IMG/VR virus record: IMGVR_UViG_3300024261_000044
Span: 1 to 52,200 of that record
Length of the DNA: 52,200 nucleotides
Origin: a virus
Lineage: Duplodnaviria; Caudoviricetes
Strand: one strand, 5' to 3'
A program made the position numbers and the translations under genes. The notes beneath the pieces are model-generated. The model searched no databases. It saw only the letters and a program-made list of their open reading frames with translations, and had not been told where the DNA came from. Shown piece after piece: positions 23,891 through 46,766 of the stretch (within the stretch, counting starts at the first letter, position 1; each line of letters starts with the position of its first letter).

Positions 23891-24067
23891 ATGAGACTTG
23901 AATATCTGAATAATTGTATTATGCTCGCCATTAATGGGAAGTGCTACTGCTTATTAACACACTACAAAAGTGTGCATAGCTGCGTAGTAAAAGTTTTTGG
24001 TTTTACAATTTGGGATACTTTTATAGACCCATTCACAGGTAGGAGGGAGTGGTTCAAAAAGACATAA
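23891..24067 (+). CDS. Small hypothetical protein (58 aa, Cys-rich)
   Basis: AAGGAGA ribosome-binding site; MRLEYLNNCIMLAINGKCYCLL...REWFKKT-TAA. Below the ORF-track length cut-off. Confidence 0.6.
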   Translation: MRLEYLNNCIMLAINGKCYCLLTHYKSVHSCVVKVFGFTIWDTFIDPFTGRREWFKKT

Positions 24068-24103
24068 CTGTCTTTTTACAATAAAAAAAATCAATGGAGG
24101 ATT

Positions 24104-25486
24104 ATGGAAGTATTAATAGTAATAAAAAATAAAGTATCTATTCTTGGTTTTCCTAGTGATGTTCTTGATGAGATAAAAAAACATCTGACTATAAATAACC
24201 CTCTTTTCCATAAAAGGTTAGATATGGGATTGCAGAACTGGGGAGTTCCATCGTCATTAAAATACTGGGATATTAGCAAAGATAATGATAATCTCATAAT
24301 AGTTCCTGTCGGTGCTTTGGGGGAAATTCTAAAGATAGCCCACGCGCACGAGATAAAAGTAGTAGAATCCGATATTCGTGACCAAAGGTTAAGTAACCCA
24401 AAAACAACCTACTTTTCTAAATTAGAGTTTATTGGGGAGTTACGCGAGTACCAAGAAGACATGGTAAAAGCATGTATGAGTAAAACGATTGGGGTTGTGG
24501 AAGCTATGACTGGGTCAGGAAAGACTATATGTTTTGTAAATTTAACTTTGAGAAGAAAAGAACCTACATTAATTCTTGTGCACACGCTTGAGTTAGCAAA
24601 TCAAACTATAAAATCGTTTGTAAAATTTTCTAATTTAAAAGAAGAGGATATAGGATTTATAGGAGATGGTAGATTTGAAGTAAAACCCATAACGGTAGGG
24701 TTACATCAAACAATGTCTAAGCTGAAGACCGACAGATTTAACATAATAAATGAAAGGTTTGGACAACTCATTGGTGACGAAATTCACATTGTGGGCGCTG
24801 AAACCTGGTTTCGCACTTTAAACAACTTGAATGCAAAGTTCAAGTTTGGATTTACCGCCACACCTAAAAGGGACGATGGGTTAACAAAAGTGATACATTT
24901 TGCATCTGGCCCCATAATACACAAAGTTCCAAAATCAGCATTAAGTGGTTTCTTAATAACCCCTGAAGTAGAGCAAATAAAAACTCAGTATGAATTTCAA
25001 ATGTTCTCTACCCAAGAATACCAAGAAATGATAACTGACCTATCTCAGGATGATGACAGAAATGATTTTATACTAGACCATGTACAGAGTGACGATAGTA
25101 AAGGTAAATATAAGGTACTTCTTTGCACAAGAATATCACAGGTAGAGTATTTAAATAATGCTCTTGGGGATGAAAGTGTTATGCTAACATCTAAGATGAC
25201 TAAGAAAAAAAGAAACGAGGTAATGGACGAATTATACGCCGGAGAAAAGAAAATTGTTATCTCAACGTATGGTTTATTTTCAACTGGTATCGACATACCA
25301 CAACTAGAAATACTGTATCTTTGTGCTCCAATTAAGTCAGAAGTTAAGCTTCGGCAAGCTGCTGGAAGGCTTATGAGAATATCAAAAGGAAAGAAAAAAG
25401 CAAAGATAATTGACTTTATTGATCAAAAAATTGATATATTAAAGTATCAGGGATACCATAGAAATAGAATTTTTAAGAAATTATAA
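24104..25486 (+). CDS. Superfamily 2 DNA helicase (UvsW/XPB-like)
   Basis: LREYQ, TGSGKT (Walker A), DEIH, TATPKR, GIDIP, QAAGRLMR. Confidence 0.9.
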   Translation: MEVLIVIKNKVSILGFPSDVLDEIKKHLTINNPLFHKRLDMGLQNWGVPSSLKYWDISKDNDNLIIVPVGALGEILKIAHAHEIKVVESDIRDQRLSNPKTTYFSKLEFIGELREYQEDMVKACMSKTIGVVEAMTGSGKTICFVNLTLRRKEPTLILVHTLELANQTIKSFVKFSNLKEEDIGFIGDGRFEVKPITVGLHQTMSKLKTDRFNIINERFGQLIGDEIHIVGAETWFRTLNNLNAKFKFGFTATPKRDDGLTKVIHFASGPIIHKVPKSALSGFLITPEVEQIKTQYEFQMFSTQEYQEMITDLSQDDDRNDFILDHVQSDDSKGKYKVLLCTRISQVEYLNNALGDESVMLTSKMTKKKRNEVMDELYAGEKKIVISTYGLFSTGIDIPQLEILYLCAPIKSEVKLRQAAGRLMRISKGKKKAKIIDFIDQKIDILKYQGYHRNRIFKKL

Positions 25487-25500
25487 CAAAGGAAACTAAT

Positions 25501-25698
25501 ATGAAAGAAATAAAATCTTTGTCGCATGATACCGACAAAAACACAGAAGTAAAAGACAAGATAGGAGATATAGAGAGTAGACAATATTATGTATCTATAT
25601 CTGGTACTATAGAAGTTCTCCCTAAATCACGAAGTAGGTTATCTGACATTACAGGCTATAACTCCGAAGTTATGAGGGAGTTTAGTTCTGATGATTAA
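25501..25698 (+). CDS. Hypothetical protein (65 aa)
   Basis: AAGGA ribosome-binding site; packed within the operon. Confidence 0.55.
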   Translation: MKEIKSLSHDTDKNTEVKDKIGDIESRQYYVSISGTIEVLPKSRSRLSDITGYNSEVMREFSSDD

Positions 25699-26212
25699 AG
25701 TAATAAATGTAGAAGGTAATCCAACATTAAAACAACAAAGTATAGATTGTAAAACTACGAACGGTAGTTTGATGGGCCCCGTCACGGGTAAGGATTTAAA
25801 AGTATGGGATCAGTGTACAATAGAAGTTGTTACAGACTTAAAAGACACAGCTGAATCTGTATCTGATAAGTGTTTAGGCCTAGCGTCTAATCAAGTTTGG
25901 GATAAAACATCTCCACCATTGTCAGTGTTCGTAGTTAGAGTTTTAGACAGCACAGGTAATGGTTGGGAATGGAAAGAGTTTATTAACCCAACTGTAAATG
26001 GGACAGGTAAAAAATATAAATCAGAAGAGGGTTGCCTCAGCTACCCTGACCAGAAACCTAAGAAGGTTACTAGAAGAAAAAACGTTGAGATATCATACTA
26101 TTCACTAGATGATGCCGAACAAAGGCGAAGTATGAAGCTGTACGGAAACCTCACCTATCTACCGACCATCATTCAACACGAGTACGATCATATACAAGGA
26201 AGGACTATATAA
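25691..26212 (+). CDS. def: Peptide deformylase
   Basis: CLGLASNQ (motif 1), EGCLS (motif 2), QHEYDHIQG (HEXXH motif 3). Confidence 0.9.
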   Translation: MIKVINVEGNPTLKQQSIDCKTTNGSLMGPVTGKDLKVWDQCTIEVVTDLKDTAESVSDKCLGLASNQVWDKTSPPLSVFVVRVLDSTGNGWEWKEFINPTVNGTGKKYKSEEGCLSYPDQKPKKVTRRKNVEISYYSLDDAEQRRSMKLYGNLTYLPTIIQHEYDHIQGRTI

Positions 26213-26216
26213 TACT

Positions 26217-26579
26217 ATGAGTAATAAATACGACTTTAGTGATTTAGGAACACCTCAAAATAATGACGATTTAAAAGACAGGCCCAACTTTAGAATTGTA
26301 AAGACATGCGGTAATTGTAAATATTTCATGTCATTTACGAGAATAAAAAAACACGGGAATTGTGGAGTAACTAACATGAAATTAAAAAAAATAAATAAAA
26401 GTAGGAAAGAGTGCTATGATGACTCTATACGTAACCAAATAAAAAGTGATTGGCCTAAATGTCACGCTACCACAGTTTGTGAAAACCATCTTTTAAGATC
26501 TAGATCTTACAATATAGCTATGGTTTCGGAATGGTGTGATGTAGAGTTTGGAGTAGACGGGATGGTAAGGGAAGACTAA
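26217..26579 (+). CDS. Hypothetical Cys-rich protein
   Basis: CGNCKYF...C...C..H pattern; translationally coupled to the next gene. Confidence 0.6.
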   Translation: MSNKYDFSDLGTPQNNDDLKDRPNFRIVKTCGNCKYFMSFTRIKKHGNCGVTNMKLKKINKSRKECYDDSIRNQIKSDWPKCHATTVCENHLLRSRSYNIAMVSEWCDVEFGVDGMVRED

Positions 26580-28057
26580 TGGGAACTCAAATTATAAAGT
26601 TACTGAATTCCTACGGTTTTGATGCTTGGTTGTGTGGCGGAACTGCAAGAGACATATACTTAGGAATAGAGCCAAGTGGTTTTGATGTTGCTATAAGAGC
26701 TAACTTAAAGGAGCTTCGTGCAGCATTGACCCCCAAAATACTGAAAATAAATCAGTACGATACGTCTGTAACTATAAAGTACAAAGATAGGGAGTACTGT
26801 CTTTACCCATTAAAAAAAGTAAAACTGCAGAATACTTACTATAACTATTCTTTTACTAATAGTTTGGAAGACGACGCTGCATCTAAAGACTTTACGATAA
26901 ATGCCATATATTTTAATCCTCTAAAAGATGAGTGGATAGATTTCTACGATGGTATTAAGGATTTGAATAATAAAACTATAAGGTTTGTTGGAGACCCCTA
27001 CCAGAGAATACTTGAGTCTAAGGTTAGACTGCTTAGGTGCATATCTTTATGTAGTATCCTCGGTAAATCTTGGAAAATAGATGACGCATCCTTAAAAGCT
27101 GTGCAGGATAATAAGTTAAAAATTGCTGGTTCTCCTTCCAAACAAATATTTAATGAATTTAAAAAAGTATTTACCAGATGTGAGGCACCAAGTAGGTTTT
27201 TCTCGTTAATGGTGAAGTCTAGGTTGGATGAGGAGTTATTTACAGAACTAAGTTCTTGTATTGGCATTGAACAAAGTAATAAAAGGAAAAACTTAGATTT
27301 GTACCAGCATATAATGTACGCATTAGACTCTGTCCCTCTAAATCATTCAAATACGCTATTATTAAGAACCTCTGCTCTTCTTCATGACATCGGGAAACCC
27401 GCTACTGAGGTGTATACTGATACGGGAATGCACTTCTACAATCATGAAAATGTTGGAGCATTTGTAGCTGAGAAGATATTAATGCAGTGGGGGTACCCAA
27501 GTTCTACTATAGAGACAGTTGTTCTTCTAATAAAAAATCACTTATTTGATGCATCTTTTAGAAAATCAGAGGCATCAGTAAAGAAACTAGTTGCAAAAGT
27601 CGGGGAAAATAATATACATAACTTACTTGATCTACGTATGGCTGATAGAATGGGATGTGGACGTCCTGATATATCAATGAAACCTGTAGATATACTAAGG
27701 TCAAAAGTTAATAAATTATTAGCTAAGTCATCTCCAGACAAAATAAAAATTAAATTATCTAACTCACAGATTGAGTCTATAATAAAAAAGACAACTGATA
27801 ATGTCGACGAAGCAGTAGGTAAGGTTAGGGAATATCTTGAACAAAAGCTTGTTATAGGTAAGTTACAAAACAAGCCTCAGAACTTAAGACGCGCAGTTTA
27901 TAAAATAAATCATATAAGATGTCCACTAGATAAGCCACATCTTTTTCATACCTGGTCTGAAAAGCAAAAAGGAAATGCTGATATATTTCCTGACGGTAGG
28001 CTAAGGTGCGGAGTTTTCTGTAACTTTTTATGTGACAACGTAGAAAAATCAAAATAA
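26579..28057 (+). CDS. CCA-adding enzyme/poly(A) polymerase-family protein with HD domain (nucleotidyltransferase motifs degenerate)
   Basis: AWLCGGTARD, KDFTINAI, IRFVGDP, LLHDIGK, FYNHENVGA. Confidence 0.85.
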   Translation: MGTQIIKLLNSYGFDAWLCGGTARDIYLGIEPSGFDVAIRANLKELRAALTPKILKINQYDTSVTIKYKDREYCLYPLKKVKLQNTYYNYSFTNSLEDDAASKDFTINAIYFNPLKDEWIDFYDGIKDLNNKTIRFVGDPYQRILESKVRLLRCISLCSILGKSWKIDDASLKAVQDNKLKIAGSPSKQIFNEFKKVFTRCEAPSRFFSLMVKSRLDEELFTELSSCIGIEQSNKRKNLDLYQHIMYALDSVPLNHSNTLLLRTSALLHDIGKPATEVYTDTGMHFYNHENVGAFVAEKILMQWGYPSSTIETVVLLIKNHLFDASFRKSEASVKKLVAKVGENNIHNLLDLRMADRMGCGRPDISMKPVDILRSKVNKLLAKSSPDKIKIKLSNSQIESIIKKTTDNVDEAVGKVREYLEQKLVIGKLQNKPQNLRRAVYKINHIRCPLDKPHLFHTWSEKQKGNADIFPDGRLRCGVFCNFLCDNVEKSK

Positions 28058-28060
28058 AAA

Positions 28061-28429
28061 ATGTTAATTGCTTTTTTAATAATTTTAATAGCAGCTCTGA
28101 GCTTAAATCTATTTTATACTTTAAGAGCAGTGAAAGGTTTGAAGTCTAAGTACTCTAAAGTTCTTTCTCAAAAGAAAAGTAGTGAAGTTGTTACGGGCCA
28201 TATAGCAGAACAACTTGCTCCATTTTTAGATAACTTTCCTTATGACCCTAAGCAAGTAAAATTCTTGGGCCAACCAATAGATTATATCCACTACGGAGAT
28301 GACCAAATTACTTTTATTGAAGTAAAATCTGGTAAGTCTAGGCTATCAAAAAAGCAAAAACATATAAAACAATTAATCGAAAATAACCAAGTCTTTTGGG
28401 ACGAAGTGAGAATACATGGGAAAAATTAG
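28061..28429 (+). CDS. Archaeal-type Holliday-junction-resolvase-like PD-(D/E)xK endonuclease with N-terminal hydrophobic helix
   Basis: GHIAEQLAPFL, FLGQPIDYI, FIEVKSG. Confidence 0.8.
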   Translation: MLIAFLIILIAALSLNLFYTLRAVKGLKSKYSKVLSQKKSSEVVTGHIAEQLAPFLDNFPYDPKQVKFLGQPIDYIHYGDDQITFIEVKSGKSRLSKKQKHIKQLIENNQVFWDEVRIHGKN

Positions 28430-31154
28430 TACAGATACATTTAAAAAGCTTTTCGTCCACAGGGACGATGTCTACGCTATACAACAAACAAAAGGTTCTT
28501 ATATTCCAGTAAAAGAACCTGTTGACGATGATATTATGAATGCACACTTGGCTGGTCGTCAAACAATTGGACTTTACCAAGTAAAGCCTGAGGAAAATAC
28601 AGTTAAGTGGGCTTGTCTAGACATTGATCTTACTAAGTCAGTGTGGAGCAATGAAAATTTTAATCTAGATGACTGGAAAGATAAGTTATTAGAACAAGCA
28701 GAAATTTCAAAGAAACTTCTTAGTAATAAGGGTATACCTTCTTACATAGAATTTTCAGGAAATAAGGGGTACCATGTGTGGGTTTTCTTTGAAAATCCCG
28801 TACCGTCAAGTATTATAAAAAGTGGTTTTGAGGGTATATTCTCAAGTATGCGCCCCACTACGAACGGAATTGAGTGGGAAATATTCCCCAAGCAAACCCA
28901 GGTAAATAAAGGATCTTTTGGAAATCTTGTAAAAGGGCCTAATGGGTACCACCATAAATCTAGAGTATTTAGTGAGTTTATAGATAACTTGTCAGTGAGT
29001 ACAGTTAACTACGCTGATACAATGTCGTTTTCTAATGAATCTGCACCATACACAGAGCCTCTAAAAAAATGCGAAGCTTTACGAAACATGTGGAATACCT
29101 GCGTAGACCAGGAAGAGTCACCTAATTTTTTCAATGAAATAGTTGGGTATATGTTTACAAACATGGGTGAAGAGGCTGAAAAGTATGCTACTCAAAACTT
29201 TTTTAGTAAAATGAAAAACTATGACCCAGAGGTCACTAAAAAAAACATAGCAGTGATGAAAACAAAGATGAGGGAGGAGGAGGGGGAAGGATACCTTCCC
29301 ATTACTTGTGAAAAGTTACAGGATGGTAAATATGGGAGCATTTGTTCACAAAGGTGTACCGCTATTGGTAGGGCAAAAAGTCCGATAGCTTTTTACCACT
29401 GGTCTACTCAAGAGAAGGAAGTGGATATTAATGCTTTAGACAAATCAGACTTTCTTTTCCGCAAAGGAAATTCTTACTATGAGAGGTTACCTGGAAAGGA
29501 AGACACGAAGATAAAAAAACTTTCTAGCTTTACAATGGAAATAACAAAGGATACTACAATCAGCACAGGCATGGCTGAATTTGATAAAAGAATATTTGAA
29601 GGTAACATACGAAAAGAAAAAGATGAGATAGAGTTCGAAATTTCTTCAGATGATTTTTCTAACGATGAAAAATTAAAAGGTTTTGTTTATAAAACTCTAG
29701 GGCCTAACCAACTACTTATAGAAAACATACCTTCTATAAAAACAGCTATCCAAAAGTATGCTAAGTCTAAGGCAGTCTTTATACTAAAACAGTTTGGGTT
29801 TAATGATCTAAAGGGGGACGATAAGTATCCTCACAAATATATGAGTCCGTCCGTTATTATAGACAAAAATGGTATAAGAAATAATGATGATACCCTGGTT
29901 AGTTTAGAGGGGGAAGAATTCGCAGAGTACCTTGACTTACAAATAATAGACGATGAAACTTTTATATCTTTAAAGAAGCATATTCAAGAAGATTTGATGA
30001 AAATTGTAAACAAAGAAGTTACATACGGTGCCCTATCATTTACTTTCTTACCCATTTTATTTCCTTTTTTAGAGGGTGATAGAACAAAGTTTACATACTT
30101 TGTTAGAGGAGAGTCAGGTACAGGTAAGTCTTACACAATGGAAGCATTTCAACATTTCTATGGTAAGTTTGAGTCATTTCCTACATGGAGTTCTACATCA
30201 AACTCACTAGGACGAATAGGATACTTTATGAAAGATACTTTATTTATGATAGATGACTTCAAAAAGAGAATGTTCTTCAAACCAGGAGCTTTTGACGGTG
30301 CTATGACCCTAATGCAAAACTATGCAGATAACACAGCCAGATCAAGGATGACTGCTAACATGGAATTAGCAAAGACATTTATTGTTAGAGGGTGGCTTGC
30401 TTCCACAGGCGAAGATACGCCATCCGGTGAAGCATCTAATTTAGCAAGAATGGTCCCAACTACGTGCAATACTAAGTTTAAAGACATGGTAAAAGGACGT
30501 AGGATTCAAGAAATGAAGCAGTTCTACCCAGGATTCACTGCTAGATACCTACACCATGTATTTAATATTGCTCCAGTACTAATAAACAAATCTATGCAAG
30601 ATAATATGGACCATTTTTACTCCAAAATAGCTGGGCAATCTAATGATATACGGATAGCCAGAAATGTATCTCTCTTAGCGACAAGTTTTAAATTTGTATC
30701 AGAATTTGTATGGAGTAAGAAGAGAGCAAAGGAAGCACAAGAAGAGTTTTTATCCTTACTAGACACTCAGATAATTGATGTTGCACTAGAAGCTGCTGAG
30801 GAATTAGCATCGGATAGGTTCTTAAAAGTACTTCAAGAGCTTTTATCCAGCGGGAAAGTAAGAATGTTACCAAATTATATGGAAGATGTGGAAGAGAACA
30901 ATCACACGCCAATAATAGGATATTGGGGAACACGCAAAGAAGTAGAGCAGCCCGTTGGTTACTTAGTCGTTAGCCTAGCTTTTAAAGAAATTCAATCATT
31001 TCTAAGAGCATCTAACGAGAGTTTGACGCACACAAAGAAAGCTATAATACACGAGCTTTACGAAAACGGAATGATTTATGATAAAACAGTACAGTCAAGA
31101 AAAATGCAGGGAAGATCTGTGCGAGTAATTACAGTTAAACCAGATTATTTATAA
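28416..31154 (+). CDS. Primase (AEP-type)-helicase fusion
   Basis: WACLDID, EFSGNKGYHVWVFF in the N-terminus; Cys cluster; Walker A GESGTGKS and Walker B IDDFK. Confidence 0.85.
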   Translation: MGKISTDTFKKLFVHRDDVYAIQQTKGSYIPVKEPVDDDIMNAHLAGRQTIGLYQVKPEENTVKWACLDIDLTKSVWSNENFNLDDWKDKLLEQAEISKKLLSNKGIPSYIEFSGNKGYHVWVFFENPVPSSIIKSGFEGIFSSMRPTTNGIEWEIFPKQTQVNKGSFGNLVKGPNGYHHKSRVFSEFIDNLSVSTVNYADTMSFSNESAPYTEPLKKCEALRNMWNTCVDQEESPNFFNEIVGYMFTNMGEEAEKYATQNFFSKMKNYDPEVTKKNIAVMKTKMREEEGEGYLPITCEKLQDGKYGSICSQRCTAIGRAKSPIAFYHWSTQEKEVDINALDKSDFLFRKGNSYYERLPGKEDTKIKKLSSFTMEITKDTTISTGMAEFDKRIFEGNIRKEKDEIEFEISSDDFSNDEKLKGFVYKTLGPNQLLIENIPSIKTAIQKYAKSKAVFILKQFGFNDLKGDDKYPHKYMSPSVIIDKNGIRNNDDTLVSLEGEEFAEYLDLQIIDDETFISLKKHIQEDLMKIVNKEVTYGALSFTFLPILFPFLEGDRTKFTYFVRGESGTGKSYTMEAFQHFYGKFESFPTWSSTSNSLGRIGYFMKDTLFMIDDFKKRMFFKPGAFDGAMTLMQNYADNTARSRMTANMELAKTFIVRGWLASTGEDTPSGEASNLARMVPTTCNTKFKDMVKGRRIQEMKQFYPGFTARYLHHVFNIAPVLINKSMQDNMDHFYSKIAGQSNDIRIARNVSLLATSFKFVSEFVWSKKRAKEAQEEFLSLLDTQIIDVALEAAEELASDRFLKVLQELLSSGKVRMLPNYMEDVEENNHTPIIGYWGTRKEVEQPVGYLVVSLAFKEIQSFLRASNESLTHTKKAIIHELYENGMIYDKTVQSRKMQGRSVRVITVKPDYL

Positions 31155-36379: not shown

Positions 36380-39361
36380 ATGAGCAAATTTTCATTATCA
36401 GAAAATTTTATATCTAAGTATAAAAGAAAGAAACCACCTTTTGGGTTTAACGGTTTAGGAGAACTTGTATACTACAGAACCTATAGTAGAATAAAGGACG
36501 ACGGCAAAAATGAGCGATGGTGGGAAACAATAAAACGTGTTGTTGAGGGAACCTACAACATCCAAAAGGATTGGATTGAACAGCACAGGCTAGAATGGAA
36601 CCCACAGAAGTCACAATTTTCCGCACAAGAGATGTATGACCGCATGTTTCATATGAAAATATTGCCCCCAGGTAGAGGTTTATTTGCACAAGGGTCGGAC
36701 ATTATAAGTAAAAAGCGTTTGACGCCCGCCTTGTTCAATTGCTGTTTTGTCAGTACTGAAAATATAGCTAAGGACCCCTCTTACCCATTCATGTTTGCTA
36801 AAGATATGTTAATGCTTGGTGTGGGAATGGGGGTAGATCTAAAGGGGGCAGGTACCATAGATGTACGAGAACCGTCTAAAGAAGAAGAGATTTTTGTTAT
36901 ACCAGACACAAGAGAAGGGTGGGTTGAGTCACTAGGACTGGTCATTGGGGCCTATTTTGGTAAAAATAAAACTCCTATTATGGATTACTCATTAATTCGT
37001 CCTGCAGGCTCTCCTATTAAAACGTTTGGTGGGACTGCTTCAGGTAGCGCACCTTTAAAAGAATTTCATTCTGCAGTATGTAAAACATTAGATAAAAATG
37101 TCGGCAGTTTAATTACGCAAACCACTATAGCCGATATATTCAATCTTACGGGAAAAGTAGTTGTTGCGGGAAATACAAGAAGGTCAGCTATCTTAATAGC
37201 AGGTGATACTTCAGAAGAGTTTTTAAACTTAAAAAACTACGAAGTGAATCCCGGAAGAGTTGACTACGGTTGGTCATCTAATAATAGTGTAAATGCTACA
37301 CTAGGTATGGACTACAAAGATATAGCTGAGAGCATTCGTATTAATGGAGAGCCTGGGTTGTTGTGGTTAGAAAATGCACATAATAATAAGAGGATGGGAG
37401 ATACATCTAATGGATTACAAAAAGATGACAGAACACAAGCCACAAATCCATGTGGTGAGATATTCTTAGAGAGCGCAGAAAAATGCGTAGCAGGTGACAC
37501 TCGCTTACAATTAAAAAGCGGTAATGCAAAAATTAAAAACATTGTTGGTAAAGAAGTAGAGATATGGAACGGGGAAAATTGGTCCAAAGTTACACCTTTT
37601 AAAACTTCTACGTCGTCTAAGCTTTTAAGAATTACTATGACTGATGGGTCAGTTCTTGAAACGACGGACTACCATAGATTTAGTGCTTTACCCTCTGGCA
37701 GTGTTAAGTTTAAAACTGTAAAAGCCTCAGAGCTTAGAAAGGGTTACAGACTTCCTGATTTCACTTTAGGCGGTATTGAGGGGGAGTATTATCCTAATGC
37801 CTTTGAGTACGGTTTAATGGCAGGTGATGGTTGTGTTTATAAAGAAAACCCCATAGTAACTTTATGTGGAGATAAGGTTAAATTAAAGAATCTTAATGTA
37901 AAAGGAAAGTGGGGAAAGCCTCAAATAAAGAAAGAGTGTAAAGACCCCATAAACAGGCTATATTTAAAATCTGTTCTGGACGTTGATAAGTCCACTGATT
38001 TACGTAAAATGAAAGGGCTTCCTGATTTTGTTTTTACTATGGATAAGAAATCAATATTAGAGTTTACAGCAGGGTACATAGAGACTGATGGCACAGTTCT
38101 TAAAAATAAATATACTGAGCACTATGTTTTATATGGTAAGGAGCTACAAATGAAGGACATGCAAGTTCTTTTACGGCGTGTTGGAATTAATTACACTGCC
38201 GCATTTGAATGCTCCCCTAAAGGATTTAAAACAAATAAGGGAATTCGAAACTATGCTTTATGGGGGCTCAGAATTCACTCTCATGACTGTAAATCTATCC
38301 CCACGCGATTAAAAAAGATAAGAAATTTTGGCACTGGGTATTCAGAGAACAACGCATATAAAGATTCAAAGCCTGTAAGTAATAAAAAACACCAGTCTAT
38401 TAGATCTATTGAGGAGTTACCGGGTACCCATCCTACATTTTGTTTTTACGAGCCCCTTACGGGAATGGGTGTTTTTGGAAATTCTTTAACTTTTCAATGT
38501 AATTTATGTGAGGTCTTCCCTGACAAACATGAATCTAAAGAAGACTTTATAAAATCTTTAAAGTACGCTTATCTATACAGTAAAACTGTGACACTTTTAA
38601 ACACTCATTGGCCACAGACTAATGCAGTCATGCTAAGAAATAGGAGAGTAGGTACCAGTGTGAGTGGTATTGCGCAATTCTTAACAAACCAGAATTTACC
38701 TACTCTAAGAGAGTGGTTGAACGATGGGTATGATGCTTTAAAAGAGTATGATAAAATATACTCTAATTGGTTAGCTATACCCCGAAGTATACGAATAACA
38801 ACTAACAAACCAAGCGGAAGTATCAGTTTACTAAATGGTAGTACTCCTGGTATACATTACCCTGAGTCACGTTTTTATATAAGGCGTATGAGAATAGGTA
38901 ATCATAGTCAGCTGCTAAGCCCTTTAGAAAAAGCAGGTTACACAGTAGAGCCCGCAGTAGGGCAAGAAGAATCCACGTCAGTGGTAGAGATACCGGTAGA
39001 CGTCGGAAGCGGTATACGCCCACTAAATGAAGTGACGATGTGGGAGCAACTAGAATTAGCAGCTTTTATGTCAGAGAACTGGGCAGATAACGCGGTGTCA
39101 GTGACAGTAACATTTAACCCTGAAACTGAGGGCCACGACATTGAAAGGGCATTAGAGCACTATCAGTACAAACTAAAGTCGGTTTCCTTTCTTCCCCGTA
39201 CGAAGATTGGTGCATACGCTCAGATGCCATATGAATCAATAGACGAAGATACCTACAATAAAATGACGCAAAGTCTAAGTAAATTAAGCTTTGGAACCGT
39301 GAAGGATGAAGAAGCTAATGTAGAAAAATTTTGCAACAATGACACCTGTGAAATAATATAA
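36380..39361 (+). CDS. nrdJ: Class II (adenosylcobalamin-dependent, monomeric RTPR-type) ribonucleotide reductase with intein
   Basis: YYRTYSR, PPGRGL, ALFNC, AGNTRRSA, TNPCGEI, KPSGSISLL, C-terminal FCNNDTCEI. Confidence 0.92.
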   Translation: MSKFSLSENFISKYKRKKPPFGFNGLGELVYYRTYSRIKDDGKNERWWETIKRVVEGTYNIQKDWIEQHRLEWNPQKSQFSAQEMYDRMFHMKILPPGRGLFAQGSDIISKKRLTPALFNCCFVSTENIAKDPSYPFMFAKDMLMLGVGMGVDLKGAGTIDVREPSKEEEIFVIPDTREGWVESLGLVIGAYFGKNKTPIMDYSLIRPAGSPIKTFGGTASGSAPLKEFHSAVCKTLDKNVGSLITQTTIADIFNLTGKVVVAGNTRRSAILIAGDTSEEFLNLKNYEVNPGRVDYGWSSNNSVNATLGMDYKDIAESIRINGEPGLLWLENAHNNKRMGDTSNGLQKDDRTQATNPCGEIFLESAEKCVAGDTRLQLKSGNAKIKNIVGKEVEIWNGENWSKVTPFKTSTSSKLLRITMTDGSVLETTDYHRFSALPSGSVKFKTVKASELRKGYRLPDFTLGGIEGEYYPNAFEYGLMAGDGCVYKENPIVTLCGDKVKLKNLNVKGKWGKPQIKKECKDPINRLYLKSVLDVDKSTDLRKMKGLPDFVFTMDKKSILEFTAGYIETDGTVLKNKYTEHYVLYGKELQMKDMQVLLRRVGINYTAAFECSPKGFKTNKGIRNYALWGLRIHSHDCKSIPTRLKKIRNFGTGYSENNAYKDSKPVSNKKHQSIRSIEELPGTHPTFCFYEPLTGMGVFGNSLTFQCNLCEVFPDKHESKEDFIKSLKYAYLYSKTVTLLNTHWPQTNAVMLRNRRVGTSVSGIAQFLTNQNLPTLREWLNDGYDALKEYDKIYSNWLAIPRSIRITTNKPSGSISLLNGSTPGIHYPESRFYIRRMRIGNHSQLLSPLEKAGYTVEPAVGQEESTSVVEIPVDVGSGIRPLNEVTMWEQLELAAFMSENWADNAVSVTVTFNPETEGHDIERALEHYQYKLKSVSFLPRTKIGAYAQMPYESIDEDTYNKMTQSLSKLSFGTVKDEEANVEKFCNNDTCEII
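37484..38497 (+). mobile_element. Intein with LAGLIDADG homing endonuclease (338 aa)
   Basis: Begins CVAGDT after NPCGEIFLESAEK; block B LETTDYHRF; LAGLIDADG-like YGLMAGDG and AGYIETDG; ends GVFGNSLTFQ before CNLCE. Confidence 0.9.
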
Positions 39362-39365
39362 TATA

Positions 39366-39380: not shown

Positions 39381-39404
39381 ATAGTAAGTATGCGACTTAC
39401 TATG

Positions 39405-39436: not shown

Positions 39437-39499
39437 GTTTATCAAACACACACTAATAATAGCAATAATAAGATAAACAATAAATCAAAAAGAAAACAT

Positions 39500-39895: not shown

Positions 39896-39911
39896 AACCA
39901 AAGGAAACAAA

Positions 39912-41987: not shown

Positions 41988-42009
41988 CAAATAATCACGG
42001 TAAGAAAAT

Positions 42010-42258
42010 ATGAACGAAAACAAAAATAACATTTCAAGCGAGTTATCAGAGGTTACAATAAAAATTGTGTCAACTAATGGGCACGACGAGTGGTCTGGAA
42101 TACCTGTTGCAGCCCTAGAAAAGATAAAGTATGAATCAGAAACTACGGGCCGATGGGCTTATATTGACGGAAACCATAAAACACCTGACTCAATTACTTT
42201 AGAAGATGTGATAGATGCGGAAGAAATCATGATGGCTAACGCGTTAGTTGGTGGATAA
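42010..42258 (+). CDS. Ubiquitin-like (beta-grasp) protein ending in Gly-Gly
   Basis: 82 aa ending EIMMANALVGG-TAA; WAYIDG strand; directly upstream of JAB and E1. Confidence 0.8.
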   Translation: MNENKNNISSELSEVTIKIVSTNGHDEWSGIPVAALEKIKYESETTGRWAYIDGNHKTPDSITLEDVIDAEEIMMANALVGG

Positions 42259-42259
42259 G

Positions 42260-42688
42260 ATGAATTTTAGCATTTCAAGAGACATACTCTATGAGATGAC
42301 AAGTTATGCAAATAGTAGCCCCGACGAAATTGTTGGGGCTATGGTTGGCAAAAAACAAGGTAACTCATGGAAGTGTGAAGAGTTTATACCACTAACTAAT
42401 ATAAGTACAGAGAACAAAGAAGTACATTATGTACCGGACCCTAATGAATTTATGAGTATGTTAAGAAAAACTACTCATGTTTCTTCGAGCGCAGAAAGTG
42501 ACTTTTTAGGAATTATGCACTCTCACCCAAATAACCGGCCAATACCCTCTGTTACAGATGTTCAAGGAGCAGGTTACACGGGGGTATATATTATACACTC
42601 ACCTAAATTTAAGGAAACTAGGGCCTATTATTACGATGGTAATGAGTCTAACCGTAACTGGGACCCTATAGAACTGGAGACAAATTAA
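42260..42688 (+). CDS. JAB/MPN+ (Mov34) metallo-isopeptidase
   Basis: PDEIVG (catalytic Glu) and HSHPNNRPIPSVTD (HxH-x7-S-x2-D JAMM motif). Confidence 0.9.
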   Translation: MNFSISRDILYEMTSYANSSPDEIVGAMVGKKQGNSWKCEEFIPLTNISTENKEVHYVPDPNEFMSMLRKTTHVSSSAESDFLGIMHSHPNNRPIPSVTDVQGAGYTGVYIIHSPKFKETRAYYYDGNESNRNWDPIELETN

Positions 42689-43282
42689 ATGAGACATGTA
42701 CTAATAGTAGGAGCAGGAGGAATAGGAAGTTGGTTAGCAGAGCACCTCTTTAATCTAGAATTGCACGGCCAATTTCCAGATGATATGGTATTTACTTTTG
42801 CAGATGATGACACGGTAGAAAATAAAAACTTATCATACCAAAATTTTTCATTAGAAGACATAATGGATGAAAAATCTGAATCACTGTCAGCAAGGTACGG
42901 ATTTAACTCAATTACCAATCGTATAGAGAAGGAAGAACAGTTAATGAATTATGATGGAATTGTATGCTGTGTCGACAACTCTAAGTTTAGGAAGCTACTA
43001 TTTAAGTATGTGGATAAATACGACAATATTTTTTGGATGGATATGAGAAGCGAGGGACGAGATATAGCTATTTTTACTAAGAGTAAGAAAAATACTCTTG
43101 ACGTAATGATGAAAACATTGCCTAAAGAAGACGTAGAAAATGGCAGTTGCCAGAGACAGTGGGAGTTTGAAAATAATATAATACAACTTGGGAACAGAAT
43201 AGTGAGCAGTATCGGAGCACAGTTTATTTTAAACTGGGTTAGGGGAGATAAAAACACTCATAATTATATTGCCCACTTCTAA
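42689..43282 (+). CDS. ThiF/MoeB/E1-like adenylyltransferase
   Basis: VLIVGAGGIGS, DDDTVENKNLSYQ, CCVDN..R; candidate catalytic Cys in NGSCQ. Confidence 0.9.
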   Translation: MRHVLIVGAGGIGSWLAEHLFNLELHGQFPDDMVFTFADDDTVENKNLSYQNFSLEDIMDEKSESLSARYGFNSITNRIEKEEQLMNYDGIVCCVDNSKFRKLLFKYVDKYDNIFWMDMRSEGRDIAIFTKSKKNTLDVMMKTLPKEDVENGSCQRQWEFENNIIQLGNRIVSSIGAQFILNWVRGDKNTHNYIAHF

Positions 43283-43302
43283 ATTATTAGTTATATTAAA
43301 GT

Positions 43303-43563
43303 ATGAACATAAATTCAATCAAACAAGATGACGGTAGGCAAAAAAGAGCACAGAGCATAGACTTTGGTGAAATTAGGAATACTCAAAGTCCGGTAGGACC
43401 AGATTATGGAGATAAGTTTGATCAAATATTTCATAACTGGGATAACCCTGATAAATGCAGGGGGTACATTAACTGCTCTATTTGCCAAAAGTTACAGGAC
43501 GATGGAAAAGCCGTTAGACAAGATGATGATAAAATTTATCATTTAAATAAACAAACCAAATAA
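43303..43563 (+). CDS. Hypothetical protein (H..C....CxxC)
   Basis: ORF directly after E1, with a possible Zn-binding cluster. Confidence 0.55.
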   Translation: MNINSIKQDDGRQKRAQSIDFGEIRNTQSPVGPDYGDKFDQIFHNWDNPDKCRGYINCSICQKLQDDGKAVRQDDDKIYHLNKQTK

Positions 43564-43568
43564 AACAA

Positions 43569-43772
43569 ATGAATTGGAAAGAAAAACTAGTAAGTAGGAA
43601 ATTATGGGTTGCATTAGGTGGAGTTTTCTCTGTACTTATTGTAGACTGGGCAGGGTTAGACCCTGCAATGGCTCAAAACTTAGTTGGAGCTATCACTACA
43701 ATTGTACCTTCGTATATCGCGGGACAAGGAGTGGTCGATGCTATGGGAGCATACTTTCAAGCAAAAAACTAG
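43569..43772 (+). CDS. Putative holin/small membrane protein
   Basis: KLVSRKLWVAL start and two hydrophobic helices ending YIAGQGVVDA, typical of SRK(F/L)W-type holin-like proteins. Confidence 0.6.
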   Translation: MNWKEKLVSRKLWVALGGVFSVLIVDWAGLDPAMAQNLVGAITTIVPSYIAGQGVVDAMGAYFQAKN

Positions 43773-43791
43773 TTCAAACATTTAAAACAAT

Positions 43792-43823
43792 AAAGGGCGC
43801 GTCATTGATGTGCCCTTTTTTTT
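43792..43823 (+). terminator. Rho-independent terminator
   Basis: aaagggcgcgtca-t-tgatgtgcccttt hairpin plus T8. Confidence 0.8.
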
Positions 43824-43837
43824 AATCAAAAATAAAT

Positions 43838-44656
43838 ATGGATGCATTCAGTTATTATTTAAAATCTATTATACCTAGTACACCTTTAAGTAAAAAGGCA
43901 GAGAGGGTATTAATAAAGAAAGGAAAACTCGGTGACATGGCTGCTAGGGAAAAAGTAATAACATCTAATTTAAAATTTGTTATTAGCGTGGCTAAGAAGT
44001 ACCAAAATCAAGGACTTACAATAGACGAGTTAGTATCAGAAGGTAACTTAGGCCTAGTAAAAGCATTTGAGAAGTTCGATATTAGTAAAGATGTAAAGTT
44101 TATTACTTACGCTGTGTGGTGGATTCGTCAAGCTATATTTAATTCACTGCATGAAAATGCGAAAATTATTAGATTGCCCTTGAATAAAATTTCTAACATA
44201 ACGAAAGCTACTAAAGCTTCCGAAAGGCTAGAAAATAAATTAGGAAGATATCCTTCGATAAATGAATTAGAAGAATACTTAGATGGAGATACGACAGCCA
44301 TAAGAGACATGAAGTTTAATTACACAGTTATTGGTCTTGATACTCCACATACTGAAAATAATGAAACTTTAAATGAGATTATACCTGCTGACTTGTCTTA
44401 TGGTGTTTTAAAAACAGACGGAGAGTTTAAGAAAGAACTCACTCATATCCTAAAAACATTTCCTGAGAGGGAGAAGAGCATATTAAAAATGTATTATGGT
44501 ATTGAACAAGTTAGGCCATATACGTTAAAAGAGATTGGTGTAGATATGGGGTTAACTAGAGAAAGAATAAGGCAAATTAAAGAGAAAATATTAAAAAAGT
44601 TGCGGAGTAAGAAGTATTCTAAAACTTTGGAGGATTTTTTGAGATGGGATACGTAA
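43838..44656 (+). CDS. RpoD/SigA-like sigma-70 factor (no region 1.1)
   Basis: NLKFVISVAKKYQNQGL, EGNLGLVKAFEKFD, FITYAVWWIRQAI, IRLPLN, LTRERIRQIKEK. Confidence 0.92.
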   Translation: MDAFSYYLKSIIPSTPLSKKAERVLIKKGKLGDMAAREKVITSNLKFVISVAKKYQNQGLTIDELVSEGNLGLVKAFEKFDISKDVKFITYAVWWIRQAIFNSLHENAKIIRLPLNKISNITKATKASERLENKLGRYPSINELEEYLDGDTTAIRDMKFNYTVIGLDTPHTENNETLNEIIPADLSYGVLKTDGEFKKELTHILKTFPEREKSILKMYYGIEQVRPYTLKEIGVDMGLTRERIRQIKEKILKKLRSKKYSKTLEDFLRWDT

Positions 44657-46401
44657 CAACGGAGTCGGAATTGGTAGAAGCTATGTCTTACTTAAAGACT
44701 CAAAGCATTGTAGCGGTTGACACAGAAACAAATGGACTGGACCCGGTACTAAATAAAGTACTATTATTGCAAGTGGGTACAGAACATAAACAATTTGTGT
44801 TTGATGTTTTCAAACTAAATACTAAAATTTTTACAGTGTTACATTGGTTAACAGAAAAAGATTTAGTTAAGGTTTTACACAACGCAAAGTTTGATTATAA
44901 AATGATAAAAGGAAATTTTGAAATAGAGCTTACAAATATGAGATGTACTATGCTTGCAAACCAACTTTTAACGACCGGGAAAAAATTAAGTAGCGGATTG
45001 GATTCTGTTCTGTATAAATACTTAGGGGTTGAAGTTAGTAAAGCCGAACAAAAATCTTTTATTGATATGAGATTAGGATCAACTTTCACAGAAAGCCAAA
45101 TAAAGTATGCTGGCGATGATACTAAACACCTAATTCCTCTATATAAAAACATGCAAAGACTTTTAGAAAGTAGAAACATGGACGAACTGTCAAGATTGGA
45201 GTATAGGACAGTTGCTCCTACAGGGGATATGGAGCTAAATGGGCTTTTTTTAGATAGGAAGAAGTGGACAGCTTTGAAAGTAGAAGCTGAGGCTGATGCA
45301 GATATTGCTAAAAAAGGTTTAGATAAATACTTCGAACCTTACTGTGGTCAGTTAACTTTGTTTGAGGATGTTGATATAAACTATAGGTCACCAAAACAAT
45401 TATTACCGATTCTAAGTAAAATTACTGGTATGAATATAACTTCAACAGGTGAGCAAGAGTTAAAAAAAGTAAATCACGAAGTTGTGGACTTTTTACTAGA
45501 CTATAGAGAAAAGCAGAAGCGTATTAGTACGTATGGAGAAGAGTTTTTTAGAAAATTTGTAAGTTCATACGACGGTAGAATCCACTCTAACTTTAAACAG
45601 CTCGGTGCTGACTCTGGTAGGTACTCAAGTACTCAACCTAACTTACAAAATATTCCAAGTGACGAGAGATACAGGTCAGCTTTTACGGCACAAGACTCTG
45701 AGTATAGAATTATTGCTGCTGATTATGCTAGCCAAGAAATTCGGGTACTGGCATATATAAGCAAAGAGCCTGGACTAATAAATGCTATAAATAATAAAGT
45801 TGATCTACACACAAATTCAGCAAGCCTAATATATGGAATTCCATATAAGGACATTACTAAGAAACAACGTAACGCTGCTAAAGCGCTTACATTTGGTTTA
45901 ATATACGGTATTGGTCCTGGAAGACTTGCAGAGAATTTAGGTATTAGCTTTATGGAAGCTAAAACTTTAATGAATAAATATTTCTCAACATTCCCAAATA
46001 TTAAAAAGGTACTAGATCAGGCAGTGTCTGCGGCAAAGAAACTAAAGTACGCTCTTTCGCCTTTAGATAAAAGACGAAGAGACTTGTCATCTTTTGATTG
46101 GGATGATAAGAGGCAGGTTTCTCATGCATTAAATATTTCTAAAAATATTATATGCCAAGGAGCATCTGCATCAATAACTAAGTTAGCGTTATGTCTGGTA
46201 AAAGAAGCTATAGATAGTGGTGAGTACGATGCTAAAATAGTTAATGTAGTTCATGATGAAATTCTAGTAGAGGCTCATGAAGACGATGCCGATGACGTAG
46301 GAAAGCTTTTAGAAGTCGGGATGATAGAAGCATTTGAGCACTACTGTCCTGGAATAGCTATGGAAGTAGAAGCTGTAATAGATAACCATTGGGTACACTA
46401 A
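44644..46401 (+). CDS. polA: Family A DNA polymerase (3'-5' exonuclease plus polymerase, no 5'-3' exonuclease)
   Basis: VDTET, HNAKFD, SGRYSSTQPNLQNIP, ADYASQEIR, RNAAKALTFGLIYG, VHDEI. Confidence 0.95.
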   Translation: MGYVTTESELVEAMSYLKTQSIVAVDTETNGLDPVLNKVLLLQVGTEHKQFVFDVFKLNTKIFTVLHWLTEKDLVKVLHNAKFDYKMIKGNFEIELTNMRCTMLANQLLTTGKKLSSGLDSVLYKYLGVEVSKAEQKSFIDMRLGSTFTESQIKYAGDDTKHLIPLYKNMQRLLESRNMDELSRLEYRTVAPTGDMELNGLFLDRKKWTALKVEAEADADIAKKGLDKYFEPYCGQLTLFEDVDINYRSPKQLLPILSKITGMNITSTGEQELKKVNHEVVDFLLDYREKQKRISTYGEEFFRKFVSSYDGRIHSNFKQLGADSGRYSSTQPNLQNIPSDERYRSAFTAQDSEYRIIAADYASQEIRVLAYISKEPGLINAINNKVDLHTNSASLIYGIPYKDITKKQRNAAKALTFGLIYGIGPGRLAENLGISFMEAKTLMNKYFSTFPNIKKVLDQAVSAAKKLKYALSPLDKRRRDLSSFDWDDKRQVSHALNISKNIICQGASASITKLALCLVKEAIDSGEYDAKIVNVVHDEILVEAHEDDADDVGKLLEVGMIEAFEHYCPGIAMEVEAVIDNHWVH

Positions 46402-46766
46402 TGAAAAATAATAAAAGAAAAGAAAAGAAAGAGAGCGCAATAGATTACTGTGAACGATTTTATCCGAGCATGATGGAGCGCTTTAAGGAAATACAGCAAG
46501 AAGACTACAAAGTTTTTTGTGAGAAGCAAATGGACTACGGCCCTGGAAATATAAGTTTAGGGACAGGCCTTGTAGACGAAAGTGAAGTAAGAATGAGTTT
46601 AACAGGGCTTATAATTAGAATGAATGATAAAGTTCAAAGATTACTAAACTTGGTTGTGAAAACAATGCGGGAGCCGCAGAATGAGTCTGTTGTTGATGCT
46701 TTTGGTGACTTATCTGTTTATGGAGTTATATCAAGGATTGTTTCTGAAGGAAAATGGGCTAGATAA
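46401..46766 (+). CDS. DUF1599/nucleotide-modification-associated domain protein
   Basis: KQMDYG, IRMNDKVQRL, NESVVDAFGDLSVYGVI; TAATG overlap with the polymerase gene. Confidence 0.7.
   Translation: MKNNKRKEKKESAIDYCERFYPSMMERFKEIQQEDYKVFCEKQMDYGPGNISLGTGLVDESEVRMSLTGLIIRMNDKVQRLLNLVVKTMREPQNESVVDAFGDLSVYGVISRIVSEGKWAR

What the first reader, a model, noticed from the sequence alone, without database searches (positions are those of the whole stretch)
23891..46766. Replication block is code-neutral (no TGA as sense or stop), implying a temporal genetic-code switch
Seen: all 27 plus-strand genes are intact in the standard code and end in TAA (24) or TAG (3). Together they hold about 80 TGG codons and no in-frame TGA. 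In a host that natively read TGA as Trp, an AT-rich genome should use TGA here too. Inference: the host uses the standard code. Early genes are translatable under both codes, while structural genes need a phage-induced UGA-to-Trp switch late in infection, acting as a translational gate on virion assembly. No suppressor tRNA(UCA), TrpRS or release factor 1 is visible in this window.
Basis: partly seen in the sequence, partly recalled or inferred. Interest (0 to 1): 0.85.

Follow-up and report, generated by a model that had tools for sequence, protein, structure and literature searches.

The report
Phage fragment written in two codes
This is about a quarter of a roughly 200 kb tailed phage whose tail genes read the stop codon TGA as tryptophan while its DNA-replication genes avoid TGA altogether, a layout already described for other recoded phages.

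Summary
The 27 plus-strand ORFs of 23891-46766 carry 84 TGG, no in-frame TGA, and end in TAA (24) or TAG (3). The minus-strand tail and baseplate ORFs carry 28 in-frame TGA against 53 TGG (Fisher p = 1.8e-10).

TGA there means Trp. It swaps with TGG in a relative 79% identical in DNA. It aligns with W in standard-code relatives.

Standard-code relatives end 17-38% of the orthologous replication genes in TGA; the window ends 0 of 27. Six other recoded relatives show the same split.

The window is only about 25% of the genome and holds no tRNA, release factor or TrpRS. Near-complete recoded relatives carry a long-armed tRNA(UCA), at a site that would lie just beyond the window's left end.

The timing and the "gate" remain inference, and the highest-copy virion genes avoid TGA. 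Verdict: a real feature and a new member of a known kind.

The parts
23891..46766 (+). Replication and nucleotide-metabolism block of 27 ORFs. It has no TGA as sense or stop, so it reads the same under code 11 and code 4.
   Evidence: Families.
24104..25486 (+). DNA helicase (ResIII plus Helicase_C)
25691..26212 (+). Peptide deformylase
26579..28057 (+). CCA-adding tRNA nucleotidyltransferase with an HD domain. This is a tRNA-maturation enzyme sitting in the early block.
28416..31154 (+). AEP-type primase
36380..39361 (+). Class II ribonucleotide reductase, 993 aa, with an inserted LAGLIDADG-like segment
   Evidence: The orthologue in the close relative is 664 aa.
43838..44656 (+). Sigma-70 family factor with regions 2, 3 and 4
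44644..46401 (+). Family A DNA polymerase with 3'-5' exonuclease
1..23723 (-). Tail, baseplate and tail-fibre block. It holds 24 in-frame TGA read as Trp in 9 of its 15 ORFs. All stops are TAA or TAG.
4663..7386 (-). Tail fibre protein, 907 aa, with 6 in-frame TGA. Under code 11 it breaks into pieces.
10940..12562 (-). Baseplate J-like protein, with no TGA
15100..15822 (-). Second, divergent sigma-like protein inside the late block, with no TGA
   Evidence: Sigma70_r3, below cut-off. It is 54-60% identical in relatives.
46830..52198 (-). Sheath block. The sheath (47518-49155) and two neighbours have no TGA. ORFs 50401-51186 and 51188-51754 hold 3 and 1 TGA.
23724..23890 (.). AT-rich divergent intergenic region between the late block and the early block. 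It holds no RNA gene.

Best explanation
The window is about a quarter of a roughly 200 kb contractile-tailed phage whose genome is written for two translation states.

- **Early block.** The replication block (23891-46766) has been cleared of TGA both as a Trp codon and as a stop. Its proteins therefore come out the same whether UGA terminates or is read as Trp.
- **Late genes.** About half of the late, mostly low-copy virion genes (tail fibres, baseplate parts, tape-measure-like protein) use TGA for roughly a third of their Trp codons. They can be made full-length only when UGA is decoded as Trp.
- **Likely decoder (inferred).** It is most likely a phage-encoded tRNA with anticodon UCA. In related recoded genomes this tRNA lies between the tail-fibre genes and an amidase gene. 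That position maps just beyond the window's left end.
- **Likely charging and host (inferred).** The tRNA is presumably charged by the host TrpRS, and the host most likely uses the standard code.
- **What is shown and what is not.** The sequence partition, TGA = Trp, and the link between the tRNA and recoding within the family are shown. Inferred are the presence of the tRNA in this genome, the host's code, the early-then-late order, and any regulatory benefit.
For: 1. **Partition.** Plus block 0 TGA against 82 TGG in the 26 ORFs of at least 60 aa. Minus blocks 28 TGA against 53 TGG, p = 1.8e-10.
2. **TGA = Trp, close relative.** Of 24 TGA in 1-23723, the relative G001 (79% nt identity) has TGG at 9, TGA at 12, AGG at 1, TAT at 1, and 1 is unaligned. 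Ten window TGG are TGA in G001. No TGA corresponds to TAA or TAG.
3. **TGA = Trp, standard-code relatives.** Against G002, 13 of 22 spanned TGA sites align to W and 6 to F or Y. With TGA masked as X in seven recoded contigs, 123 of 224 TGA sites align to W, against 639 of 1007 TGG sites. Ser takes 2, Gly 2 and Cys 1.
4. **Coding density.** Block 556-23723 goes from 0.912 to 0.994 and from 24 to 14 ORFs under code 4. The early block is unchanged.
5. **TGA stops removed.** 0 of 27 here, against 8/21, 4/16 and 3/18 orthologues in standard-code relatives.
6. **Pattern conserved.** Six other recoded contigs have PolA about 50-91% identical to the window's. Their early-block orthologues hold TGA/TGG of 0/74, 1/61, 0/68, 1/72, 1/63 and 3/53. 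Their late-block orthologues hold 38/29, 29/36, 56/63, 26/59, 24/53 and 7/4.
7. **Share of genes with TGA.** About a third of genes in near-complete relatives: 87/267, 97/276 and 89/280. Borges et al. report 26-71% for phages on standard-code hosts and about 90% on code-25 hosts (passages read).
8. **The tRNA(UCA).** It is present at the same site in G016, G017 and G020 and in further lineages, with compensatory changes in its stems. It is found in 5 of 5 recoded locus clusters and in 2 of 9 standard-like ones (corrected). It is absent at the syntenic site of standard-code G002.
9. **tRNA maturation.** The early block encodes a CCA-adding enzyme.
Against: - No tRNA of any kind is in the window or in the 64 kb close relative. 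The decoder of this lineage is therefore unseen.
- The family's tRNA(UCA) has a long variable arm, and Rfam scores it as tRNA-Sec (48.5 bits against a cut-off of 47). Such tRNAs are usually charged with Ser, yet Ser aligns at only 2 of 224 TGA sites. Which enzyme loads Trp is unexplained.
- No TrpRS or RF1 is found in relatives that are 97-100% complete.
- The early/late split is not absolute. Relatives hold 1-3 TGA in early-block orthologues. TGA-rich cargo genes lie on the replication strand of G001 and G016.
- Several late genes have no TGA. A gate on all structural genes is therefore not what the sequence shows.
- The host is unknown.
- Gene models are longest-ORF calls, not a trained gene finder.
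Confidence: 0.8

Rival explanations
1. The host itself reads UGA as Trp (a code-4 bacterium), and the phage simply follows it. On this view the TGA-free replication block is a recent import or a codon-usage quirk.
For: All stops in all 48 complete ORFs are TAA or TAG, as expected in a code-4 setting. No switch machinery is visible in the window.
Against: - 0 of 82 early Trp codons are TGA, against 28 of 81 late ones.
- The same split is seen in six diverged relatives, so it is not a recent import.
- GC content is alike in the blocks, 0.34-0.38.
- Only 11 of 49 ORFs hold TGA. Borges et al. report about 90% of genes for phages on hosts that share their code.
- Sister lineages use TGA as a stop.
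- Recoded relatives carry their own tRNA(UCA).
Confidence: 0.05
2. There is no regulatory gate. TGA has drifted into whichever genes tolerate it, namely genes expressed once the suppressor tRNA is around and needed in few copies. It is purged where decoding is absent (early genes) or too slow (high-copy genes). The partition is then a passive by-product, not a timing device.
For: - TGA is missing from the highest-copy virion genes. In three near-complete relatives TGA/TGG is 0/2 for the major capsid gene in each, 0/5, 0/7 and 0/5 for the portal, 0 TGA for the tube, and 1/6, 0/8 and 0/4 for the sheath.
- TGA is frequent in the terminase (3/6, 14/9, 8/9) and in tail fibres.
- TGA and TGG swap freely between close relatives.
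- Two phage sigma factors already provide transcriptional timing.
Against: This reading still needs two translation states, so it differs from the main one only in whether the pattern is adaptive. Sequence cannot separate the two. Borges et al. argue for enrichment in lysis genes in other clades. That is not seen here: the amidase next to the tRNA has 0, 1 and 0 TGA in the relatives.
Confidence: 0.4
3. UGA is read through all the time at a low level by the host (a leaky release factor 2, or near-cognate tRNA-Trp), with no phage factor and no switch.
For: No decoder is found in the window or in its close relative.
Against: Genes with 5-6 TGA here and up to 32 in a relative could not yield useful protein at a read-through of a few percent per site; that rate is established knowledge, recalled. 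The tRNA(UCA) tracks recoding within the family. Early genes would not need to lose their TGA stops.
Confidence: 0.04
4. The contig is an assembly chimera of two phages with different codes, or TGA encodes Sec or Gly.
For: None beyond the Rfam tRNA-Sec label of the relatives' tRNA.
Against: The same gene order and the same code split occur in at least six separately assembled contigs. TGA aligns to W at 123 of 224 sites, to G at 2 and to C at 1.
Confidence: 0.01

Closest known systems
Stop-codon-recoded phages with standard-code-compatible early genes (Borges et al., bioRxiv 10.1101/2021.08.26.457843; TGA-recoded 'Agate' and 'Jade' clades). I read passages through.
   Same: - TGA aligns with Trp.
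- In-frame TGA accumulates in structural genes but not in the neighbouring replication genes.
- Close relatives use the standard code.
- A suppressor tRNA sits near a lysis gene.
- The proposed order is early standard-code translation, then a switch.
   Different: - This is a different lineage. The closest cultured capsid proteins are about 30% identical (Salmonella phage Arash and Vibrio phages).
- No RF1 or TrpRS, unlike Jade.
- The standard-code relatives in hand are not depleted in TGA stops (17-27%), whereas that paper's close relative used TGA at 2.7% of genes.
- The amidase and the high-copy virion genes are TGA-free.
- The tRNA(UCA) has a long variable arm.
Block-wise multiple genetic codes in crAss-like phages (Mgcod preprint 10.1101/2022.06.29.495998; Yutin et al., PMC7886860). 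I saw only the search listings and abstracts.
   Same: The genome is divided into blocks, one readable by the standard code and one needing a reassigned stop.
   Different: Those are podovirus-like Crassvirales of about 100 kb, mostly with TAG reassigned to Gln. Here it is a roughly 200 kb contractile-tailed phage with TGA reassigned to Trp.
Sec-like and 'allo' tRNAs with anticodon UCA (Mukai et al., PMC5389517). I read passages through.
   Same: The relatives' tRNA(UCA) has a long variable arm and reaches Rfam's tRNA-Sec cut-off.
   Different: Those tRNAs insert Ser, Cys, Ala or Sec, and 'tryptophan' occurs 0 times in that text. Here the codon aligns with Trp. The acceptor end (A1-U72 in 3 of 5 sequences, G73) resembles the phages' own tRNA-Trp(CCA).

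Membership tests
TGA-to-Trp recoded phage with a dual-coded genome | In-frame TGA in conserved genes, aligned with Trp in relatives | tested here: met
   9 TGA-to-TGG and 10 TGG-to-TGA swaps; 13/22 and 123/224 sites align to W.
TGA-to-Trp recoded phage with a dual-coded genome | Coding density and ORF length rise when TGA is read as sense, but not for TAG or TAA | tested here: met
   window 0.898 rises to 0.947 under code 4, against 0.912 with TAG as sense and 0.917 with TAA as sense; block A rises from 0.912 to 0.994. The whole-window gain is below the 10% cut-off used by one survey, because half of the window is the neutral block.
TGA-to-Trp recoded phage with a dual-coded genome | Early and replication genes are free of the reassigned codon | tested here: met
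TGA-to-Trp recoded phage with a dual-coded genome | A phage-encoded suppressor tRNA for the reassigned stop | tested here: inconclusive
   Absent from the window and from the close relative's 64 kb, but the window is about 25% of the genome. Present in related recoded genomes.
TGA-to-Trp recoded phage with a dual-coded genome | The host uses the standard code | not testable with these tools
   Indirect evidence only: standard-code sister lineages and one phage-like contig in a Bacteroidales MAG.
TGA-to-Trp recoded phage with a dual-coded genome | The switch of decoding happens during infection | not testable with these tools
   Needs time-resolved expression data.
Phage adapted to a host that shares its altered code (code 4 or code 25) | The reassigned codon is used in nearly all genes | tested here: not met
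   11 of 49 ORFs in the window and 32-35% of genes in near-complete relatives, against about 90% reported for code-25 phages.
Selenoprotein genes | TGA aligns with Cys or Sec in homologues | tested here: not met
   Cys at 1 of 224 TGA sites.

The most novel reading that the evidence does not exclude
In this uncultured family of roughly 200 kb phages, UGA would be turned into a Trp codon by a single phage part: a tRNA(UCA) with a long variable arm that looks like tRNA-Sec. It would work without any phage TrpRS or release factor, and it sits at the border between TGA-rich tail-fibre genes and a TGA-free amidase-to-portal operon. If this tRNA really carries Trp, it would be a class-II-shaped Trp tRNA, a kind I found described in none of the papers I saw. 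The window's TGA-free early block and TGA-free high-copy virion genes would then mark the limits of what this one tRNA can support. The window's own lineage has not been shown to carry it.
Probability: 0.4. Interest if true: 0.6.

Novelty: new member of a known kind. Interest (0 to 1): 0.32.

Why it matters
The window adds a clear case of a phage genome that is readable in two genetic codes, from a lineage far from the gut clades where this was first described. It comes with standard-code sister genomes that serve as controls. This suggests that early messages are still being translated after UGA has become a sense codon.

For annotation, the whole family needs code 4 for its late genes. Otherwise tail and baseplate proteins are split into fragments.

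The unexplained tRNA(UCA) in the relatives is the part most worth an experiment.

Tried and rejected
- **Finding the decoder for this lineage.** All of the following failed. ARAGORN and Rfam on the window and on the 64 kb relative. A covariance model of the family's tRNA(UCA) run on the window, G001, G006, G007 and G002 (the best window hit was 15 bits, E = 0.92, inside a coding region). IMG/VR scans with a tRNA-cluster neighbour, the polynucleotide kinase, with the capsid protein and with the actin-like gene next to the tRNA. The one metagenome scan. None returned a contig that overlaps G001's ends.
- **Unrelated recoded phages.** The kinase scan turned up other TGA-recoded phages with tRNA(UCA) (L147, L150). 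They have no PolA match to the window, so I dropped them.
- **Guess about RF1 and TrpRS.** I guessed that the 356-aa and 326-aa ORFs beside the relatives' tRNA were RF1 and TrpRS. Pfam shows an unknown protein and an actin-like 'Volactin'.
- **Host.** The genome-collection scan gave one contig labelled as a Bacteroidales MAG. Shine-Dalgarno-like motifs precede 10 of 27 plus-strand and 11 of 20 minus-strand starts, against about 11% at random sites. Neither result settles the host.
- **Trees.** Sheath, helicase and primase trees leave the standard-code G002 in an unresolved polytomy with the recoded lineages. One origin or several origins of recoding cannot be told apart. Rows with under 70% query coverage were left out (G002, G006 and G007 for the primase).
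- **Faulty regex.** The regex was wrong and missed the 3' end. It found nothing and missed L304. L304 holds the tRNA, and I corrected the tally by hand.
- **Literature.** The searches found no paper that links a Sec-like tRNA to Trp recoding in phages. This is a weak negative. Supplements were not seen and may list such tRNAs.


Full report
**What the window is**

The 52,200-base window is a whole contig with no terminal repeat. CheckV rates it 25% complete.

Its gene content is that of a large contractile-tailed phage, in three blocks:
- **Minus-strand block 1-23723.** Baseplate J, tail-fibre and baseplate-wedge-like proteins, and a long tape-measure-like protein.
- **Plus-strand block 23891-46766.** Helicase, peptide deformylase, CCA-adding enzyme, resolvase-like nuclease, AEP primase, metallo-hydrolase, exonuclease, Sak4-like ATPase, DUF669, a glycosyltransferase, RecU, dUTPase, class II ribonucleotide reductase, a JAB/ThiF pair, a sigma-70 factor and a family A DNA polymerase.
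- **Second minus-strand block 46830-52198.** It includes a tail sheath.

GC content is 0.34-0.42 throughout, and the skews flip with strand.

**The observation**

It is correct. The 26 plus-strand ORFs of at least 60 aa hold 82 TGG and no in-frame TGA, and stop in TAA (23) or TAG (3). The 58-aa ORF 23891-24067 adds two TGG and one TAA stop.

With TGA read as sense, the 22 minus-strand ORFs hold 28 TGA and 53 TGG, and stop only in TAA (14) or TAG (7). Fisher's test gives p = 1.8e-10.

Coding density under code 11 and then code 4:

| Block | Code 11 | Code 4 |
|---|---|---|
| 556-23723 | 0.912 (24 ORFs) | 0.994 (14 ORFs) |
| 46830-51754 | 0.894 | 0.968 |
| Replication block | 0.971 | 0.958 |

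**TGA is Trp**

- **Close relative.** An IMG/VR contig of 64 kb (G001) matches the window at 74-82% nucleotide identity over both late blocks and the right-hand part of the early block.
- **Swaps with TGG.** At the 24 TGA of block 1-23723, G001 has TGG 9 times, TGA 12 times, AGG once and TAT once; one site is unaligned. Ten window TGG are TGA in G001. No TGA faces TAA or TAG.
- **Standard-code relatives.** G002 (131 kb), G003 (189 kb, terminal repeats) and G005 (156 kb) gain no coding density under code 4.
- **Alignment to W.** Single alignments to G002 run across the TGA sites: 13 of 22 sites face W and 6 face F or Y. This includes the sites I first suspected of being gene ends (13004-15100 codon 367, 15839-16972 codon 193, 12573-13001 codon 124). 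With TGA masked as X in seven recoded contigs, 123 of 224 sites face W, against 639 of 1007 for TGG. Ser takes 2, Gly 2 and Cys 1.
- **One site unconfirmed.** Codon 396 of 991-4647 is not spanned by any alignment. The G002 counterpart is one ORF of 1,353 aa.

**The block is neutral in both senses**

The standard-code relatives use TGA stops freely: 35 of 154, 68 of 250 and 39 of 225 ORFs. Among orthologues of the window's plus-strand genes, 8 of 21, 4 of 16 and 3 of 18 end in TGA. The window has 0 of 27, which has probability 9.6e-4 at a rate of 0.227. The early genes have therefore lost TGA stops as well as never gaining TGA sense codons.

I read this as selection for correct termination after UGA has become a sense codon. 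That is inference.

**The pattern is conserved**

Capsid and polymerase scans of IMG/VR show a large family of roughly 200 kb phages. Some members are recoded.
- G006 and G007 are fragments.
- G016, G017 and G020 are 205-210 kb and 97-100% complete.
- G016, G017 and G020 gain 0.07-0.09 in coding density under code 4 but little under code 15.
- G016, G017 and G020 are collinear with the window.

TGA and TGG counts in orthologues of the window's genes:

| Contig | Plus-block orthologues (TGA/TGG) | Minus-block orthologues (TGA/TGG) |
|---|---|---|
| G016 | 0/74 | 38/29 |
| G017 | 1/61 | 29/36 |
| G020 | 0/68 | 56/63 |
| G001 | 1/72 | 26/59 |
| G006 | 1/63 | 24/53 |
| G007 | 3/53 | 7/4 |

The Fisher p values range from 4e-5 to 2e-16.

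The split is not perfect. A few early-block orthologues in relatives hold a TGA. G001 has TGA in two cargo genes on the replication strand. G016 has a TGA-rich island there.

About a third of all genes hold TGA in the near-complete genomes: 87/267, 97/276 and 89/280.

**Which late genes use TGA**

In the window, the sheath (5 TGG), its neighbour 46830-47507, baseplate J and the sigma-like 15100-15822 have no TGA.

TGA/TGG counts in the three near-complete relatives:

| Gene | G016 | G017 | G020 |
|---|---|---|---|
| Major capsid | 0/2 | 0/2 | 0/2 |
| Portal | 0/5 | 0/7 | 0/5 |
| Sheath | 1/6 | 0/8 | 0/4 |
| Terminase | 3/6 | 14/9 | 8/9 |

The tube gene has no TGA in any of the three.

TGA therefore sits mostly in low-copy late genes. 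This fits costly or slow decoding at least as well as a purpose-built gate. Blocking any essential low-copy part would still block assembly.

**The switch**

The window holds no tRNA, no RF-1 domain and no TrpRS-family domain. G001 holds no tRNA either.

The family carries clusters of 17-29 tRNAs.

*The tRNA(UCA) in relatives.*
- G016 and G020 have a tRNA with anticodon UCA that ARAGORN labels SeC.
- G017 has a homologous one that ARAGORN misses and Rfam finds in part.
- Further lineages have it too.
- It is GC-rich (0.53-0.61), and its anticodon loop and its 3' end, with G73 and an encoded CCA, are conserved.
- It has a long variable arm. Sixteen of its 25 predicted pairs show compensatory changes among five sequences.
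- Rfam scores the G016 copy as tRNA-Sec at 48.5 bits, against a cut-off of 47.

*Where it sits.* It lies between the TGA-rich tail-fibre genes and a TGA-free run of amidase, unknown protein, actin-like protein and portal. That is 7-14 kb beyond the point where the window's left end maps. G001 stops about 5.8 kb beyond that point.

*Link with recoding.* By clusters of the neighbouring actin-like gene, 5 of 5 recoded loci have the tRNA, and 2 of 9 standard-like loci have it (corrected). G002 has none at the syntenic site.

*Other machinery.* No RF-1 domain or TrpRS-family protein is found in G016, G017, G020, G002 or G003.

*What loads Trp.* This is open. From recall, TrpRS reads G73, the first acceptor pair and the anticodon. 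The acceptor ends of these tRNAs resemble those of the phages' own tRNA-Trp(CCA). Also from recall, SerRS reads the long arm. The alignments speak against Ser.

**Host**

Nothing here names the host.
- The closest cultured capsid proteins are about 30% identical. They belong to Salmonella phage Arash and to three Vibrio phages.
- A 204 kb contig with a capsid protein 86% identical to G002's is filed in a Bacteroidales MAG.
- The tRNA-Trp(CCA) of G016 is 85% identical to that of E. coli.

All of these bacteria use the standard code, which is established knowledge. A code-4 host is unlikely given the partition and the standard-code sister lineages, but it is not excluded.

**Comparison with what is known**

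In that model the early genes are compatible with the standard code, phage-made suppressor tRNAs and sometimes RF1 or TrpRS follow, and recoded structural and lysis genes are then translated. [quoted passage not shown]

Block-wise dual coding is also the subject of the Mgcod preprint and of the work on crAss-like phages (listings and abstracts only). A 2026 survey reports recoding in jumbo phages (passages read).

This window is therefore a new member of a known kind. Four points go beyond the published picture as far as I saw it:
- TGA stops are lost relative to sister genomes that are not depleted in them.
- The high-copy virion genes and the amidase are TGA-free.
- Phage RF1 and TrpRS are absent.
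- The shape of the tRNA(UCA) is unusual.

Supplementary tables of those papers were closed and may already list such tRNAs.

**Verdict**

Interest is modest. The tRNA(UCA) of the relatives is the most promising thread.

Noticed in passing
Relatives: L260:10650-10746, L271:5786-5883, L280:16160-16258, L302:4027-4121, L305:7843-7937, L308:7669-7766, L310:1138-1235: A conserved, GC-rich tRNA with anticodon UCA and a long variable arm. Rfam scores one copy as tRNA-Sec at 48.5 bits. It sits upstream of an amidase gene in TGA-recoded members of the family, although TGA aligns with Trp and not with Ser or Sec.
   Followed up: partly
Relatives G016:105393-105469 and G017:115365-115439 (loci L262, L282): Both recoded genomes also carry a tRNA with anticodon CUA (ARAGORN label 'Pyl'). 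Yet reading TAG as sense adds little coding density. Its role is unknown.
   Followed up: no
window 36380-39361: The ribonucleotide reductase is 993 aa, against 664 aa in the close relative. It has a weak LAGLIDADG match at residues 559-606, and the middle of the gene (about 36695-38524) does not align with the relative. This is probably an intein or another inserted homing element.
   Followed up: no
window 42248-43282: Adjacent JAB-domain and ThiF-family (E1-like) genes lie in the early block and are conserved in relatives. This could be a ubiquitin-like conjugation or deconjugation pair.
   Followed up: no
window 15100-15822: A second, divergent sigma-like gene sits inside the late structural block and has no TGA. 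It is the best-conserved protein of that block (54-60% identity in relatives).
   Followed up: partly
window 9321-12562: Baseplate J and the next gene are separate here, with an overlapping TAATG at 10938-10942. In G002, G016, G017 and G020 they form one ORF of 1,017-1,050 aa.
   Followed up: no
window 26579-28057 and 25691-26212: A CCA-adding tRNA nucleotidyltransferase and a peptide deformylase lie among the replication genes. These are translation-related functions made early.
   Followed up: no
window 17100-17200 (within 16976-19678): The protein contains a directly repeated 11-residue stretch (KTYEDTIMGIE/G twice), which looks like a small tandem duplication.
   Followed up: no
Relatives G003, G015, G016, G017, G020: These phage genomes each encode a tmRNA next to the tRNA cluster (ARAGORN).
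   Followed up: no
Relatives L260:12744-13724 and L271:7939-8925: An actin-like protein matches Pfam 'Volactin' at about 238 bits and is conserved between the amidase and the portal gene in this family.
   Followed up: no
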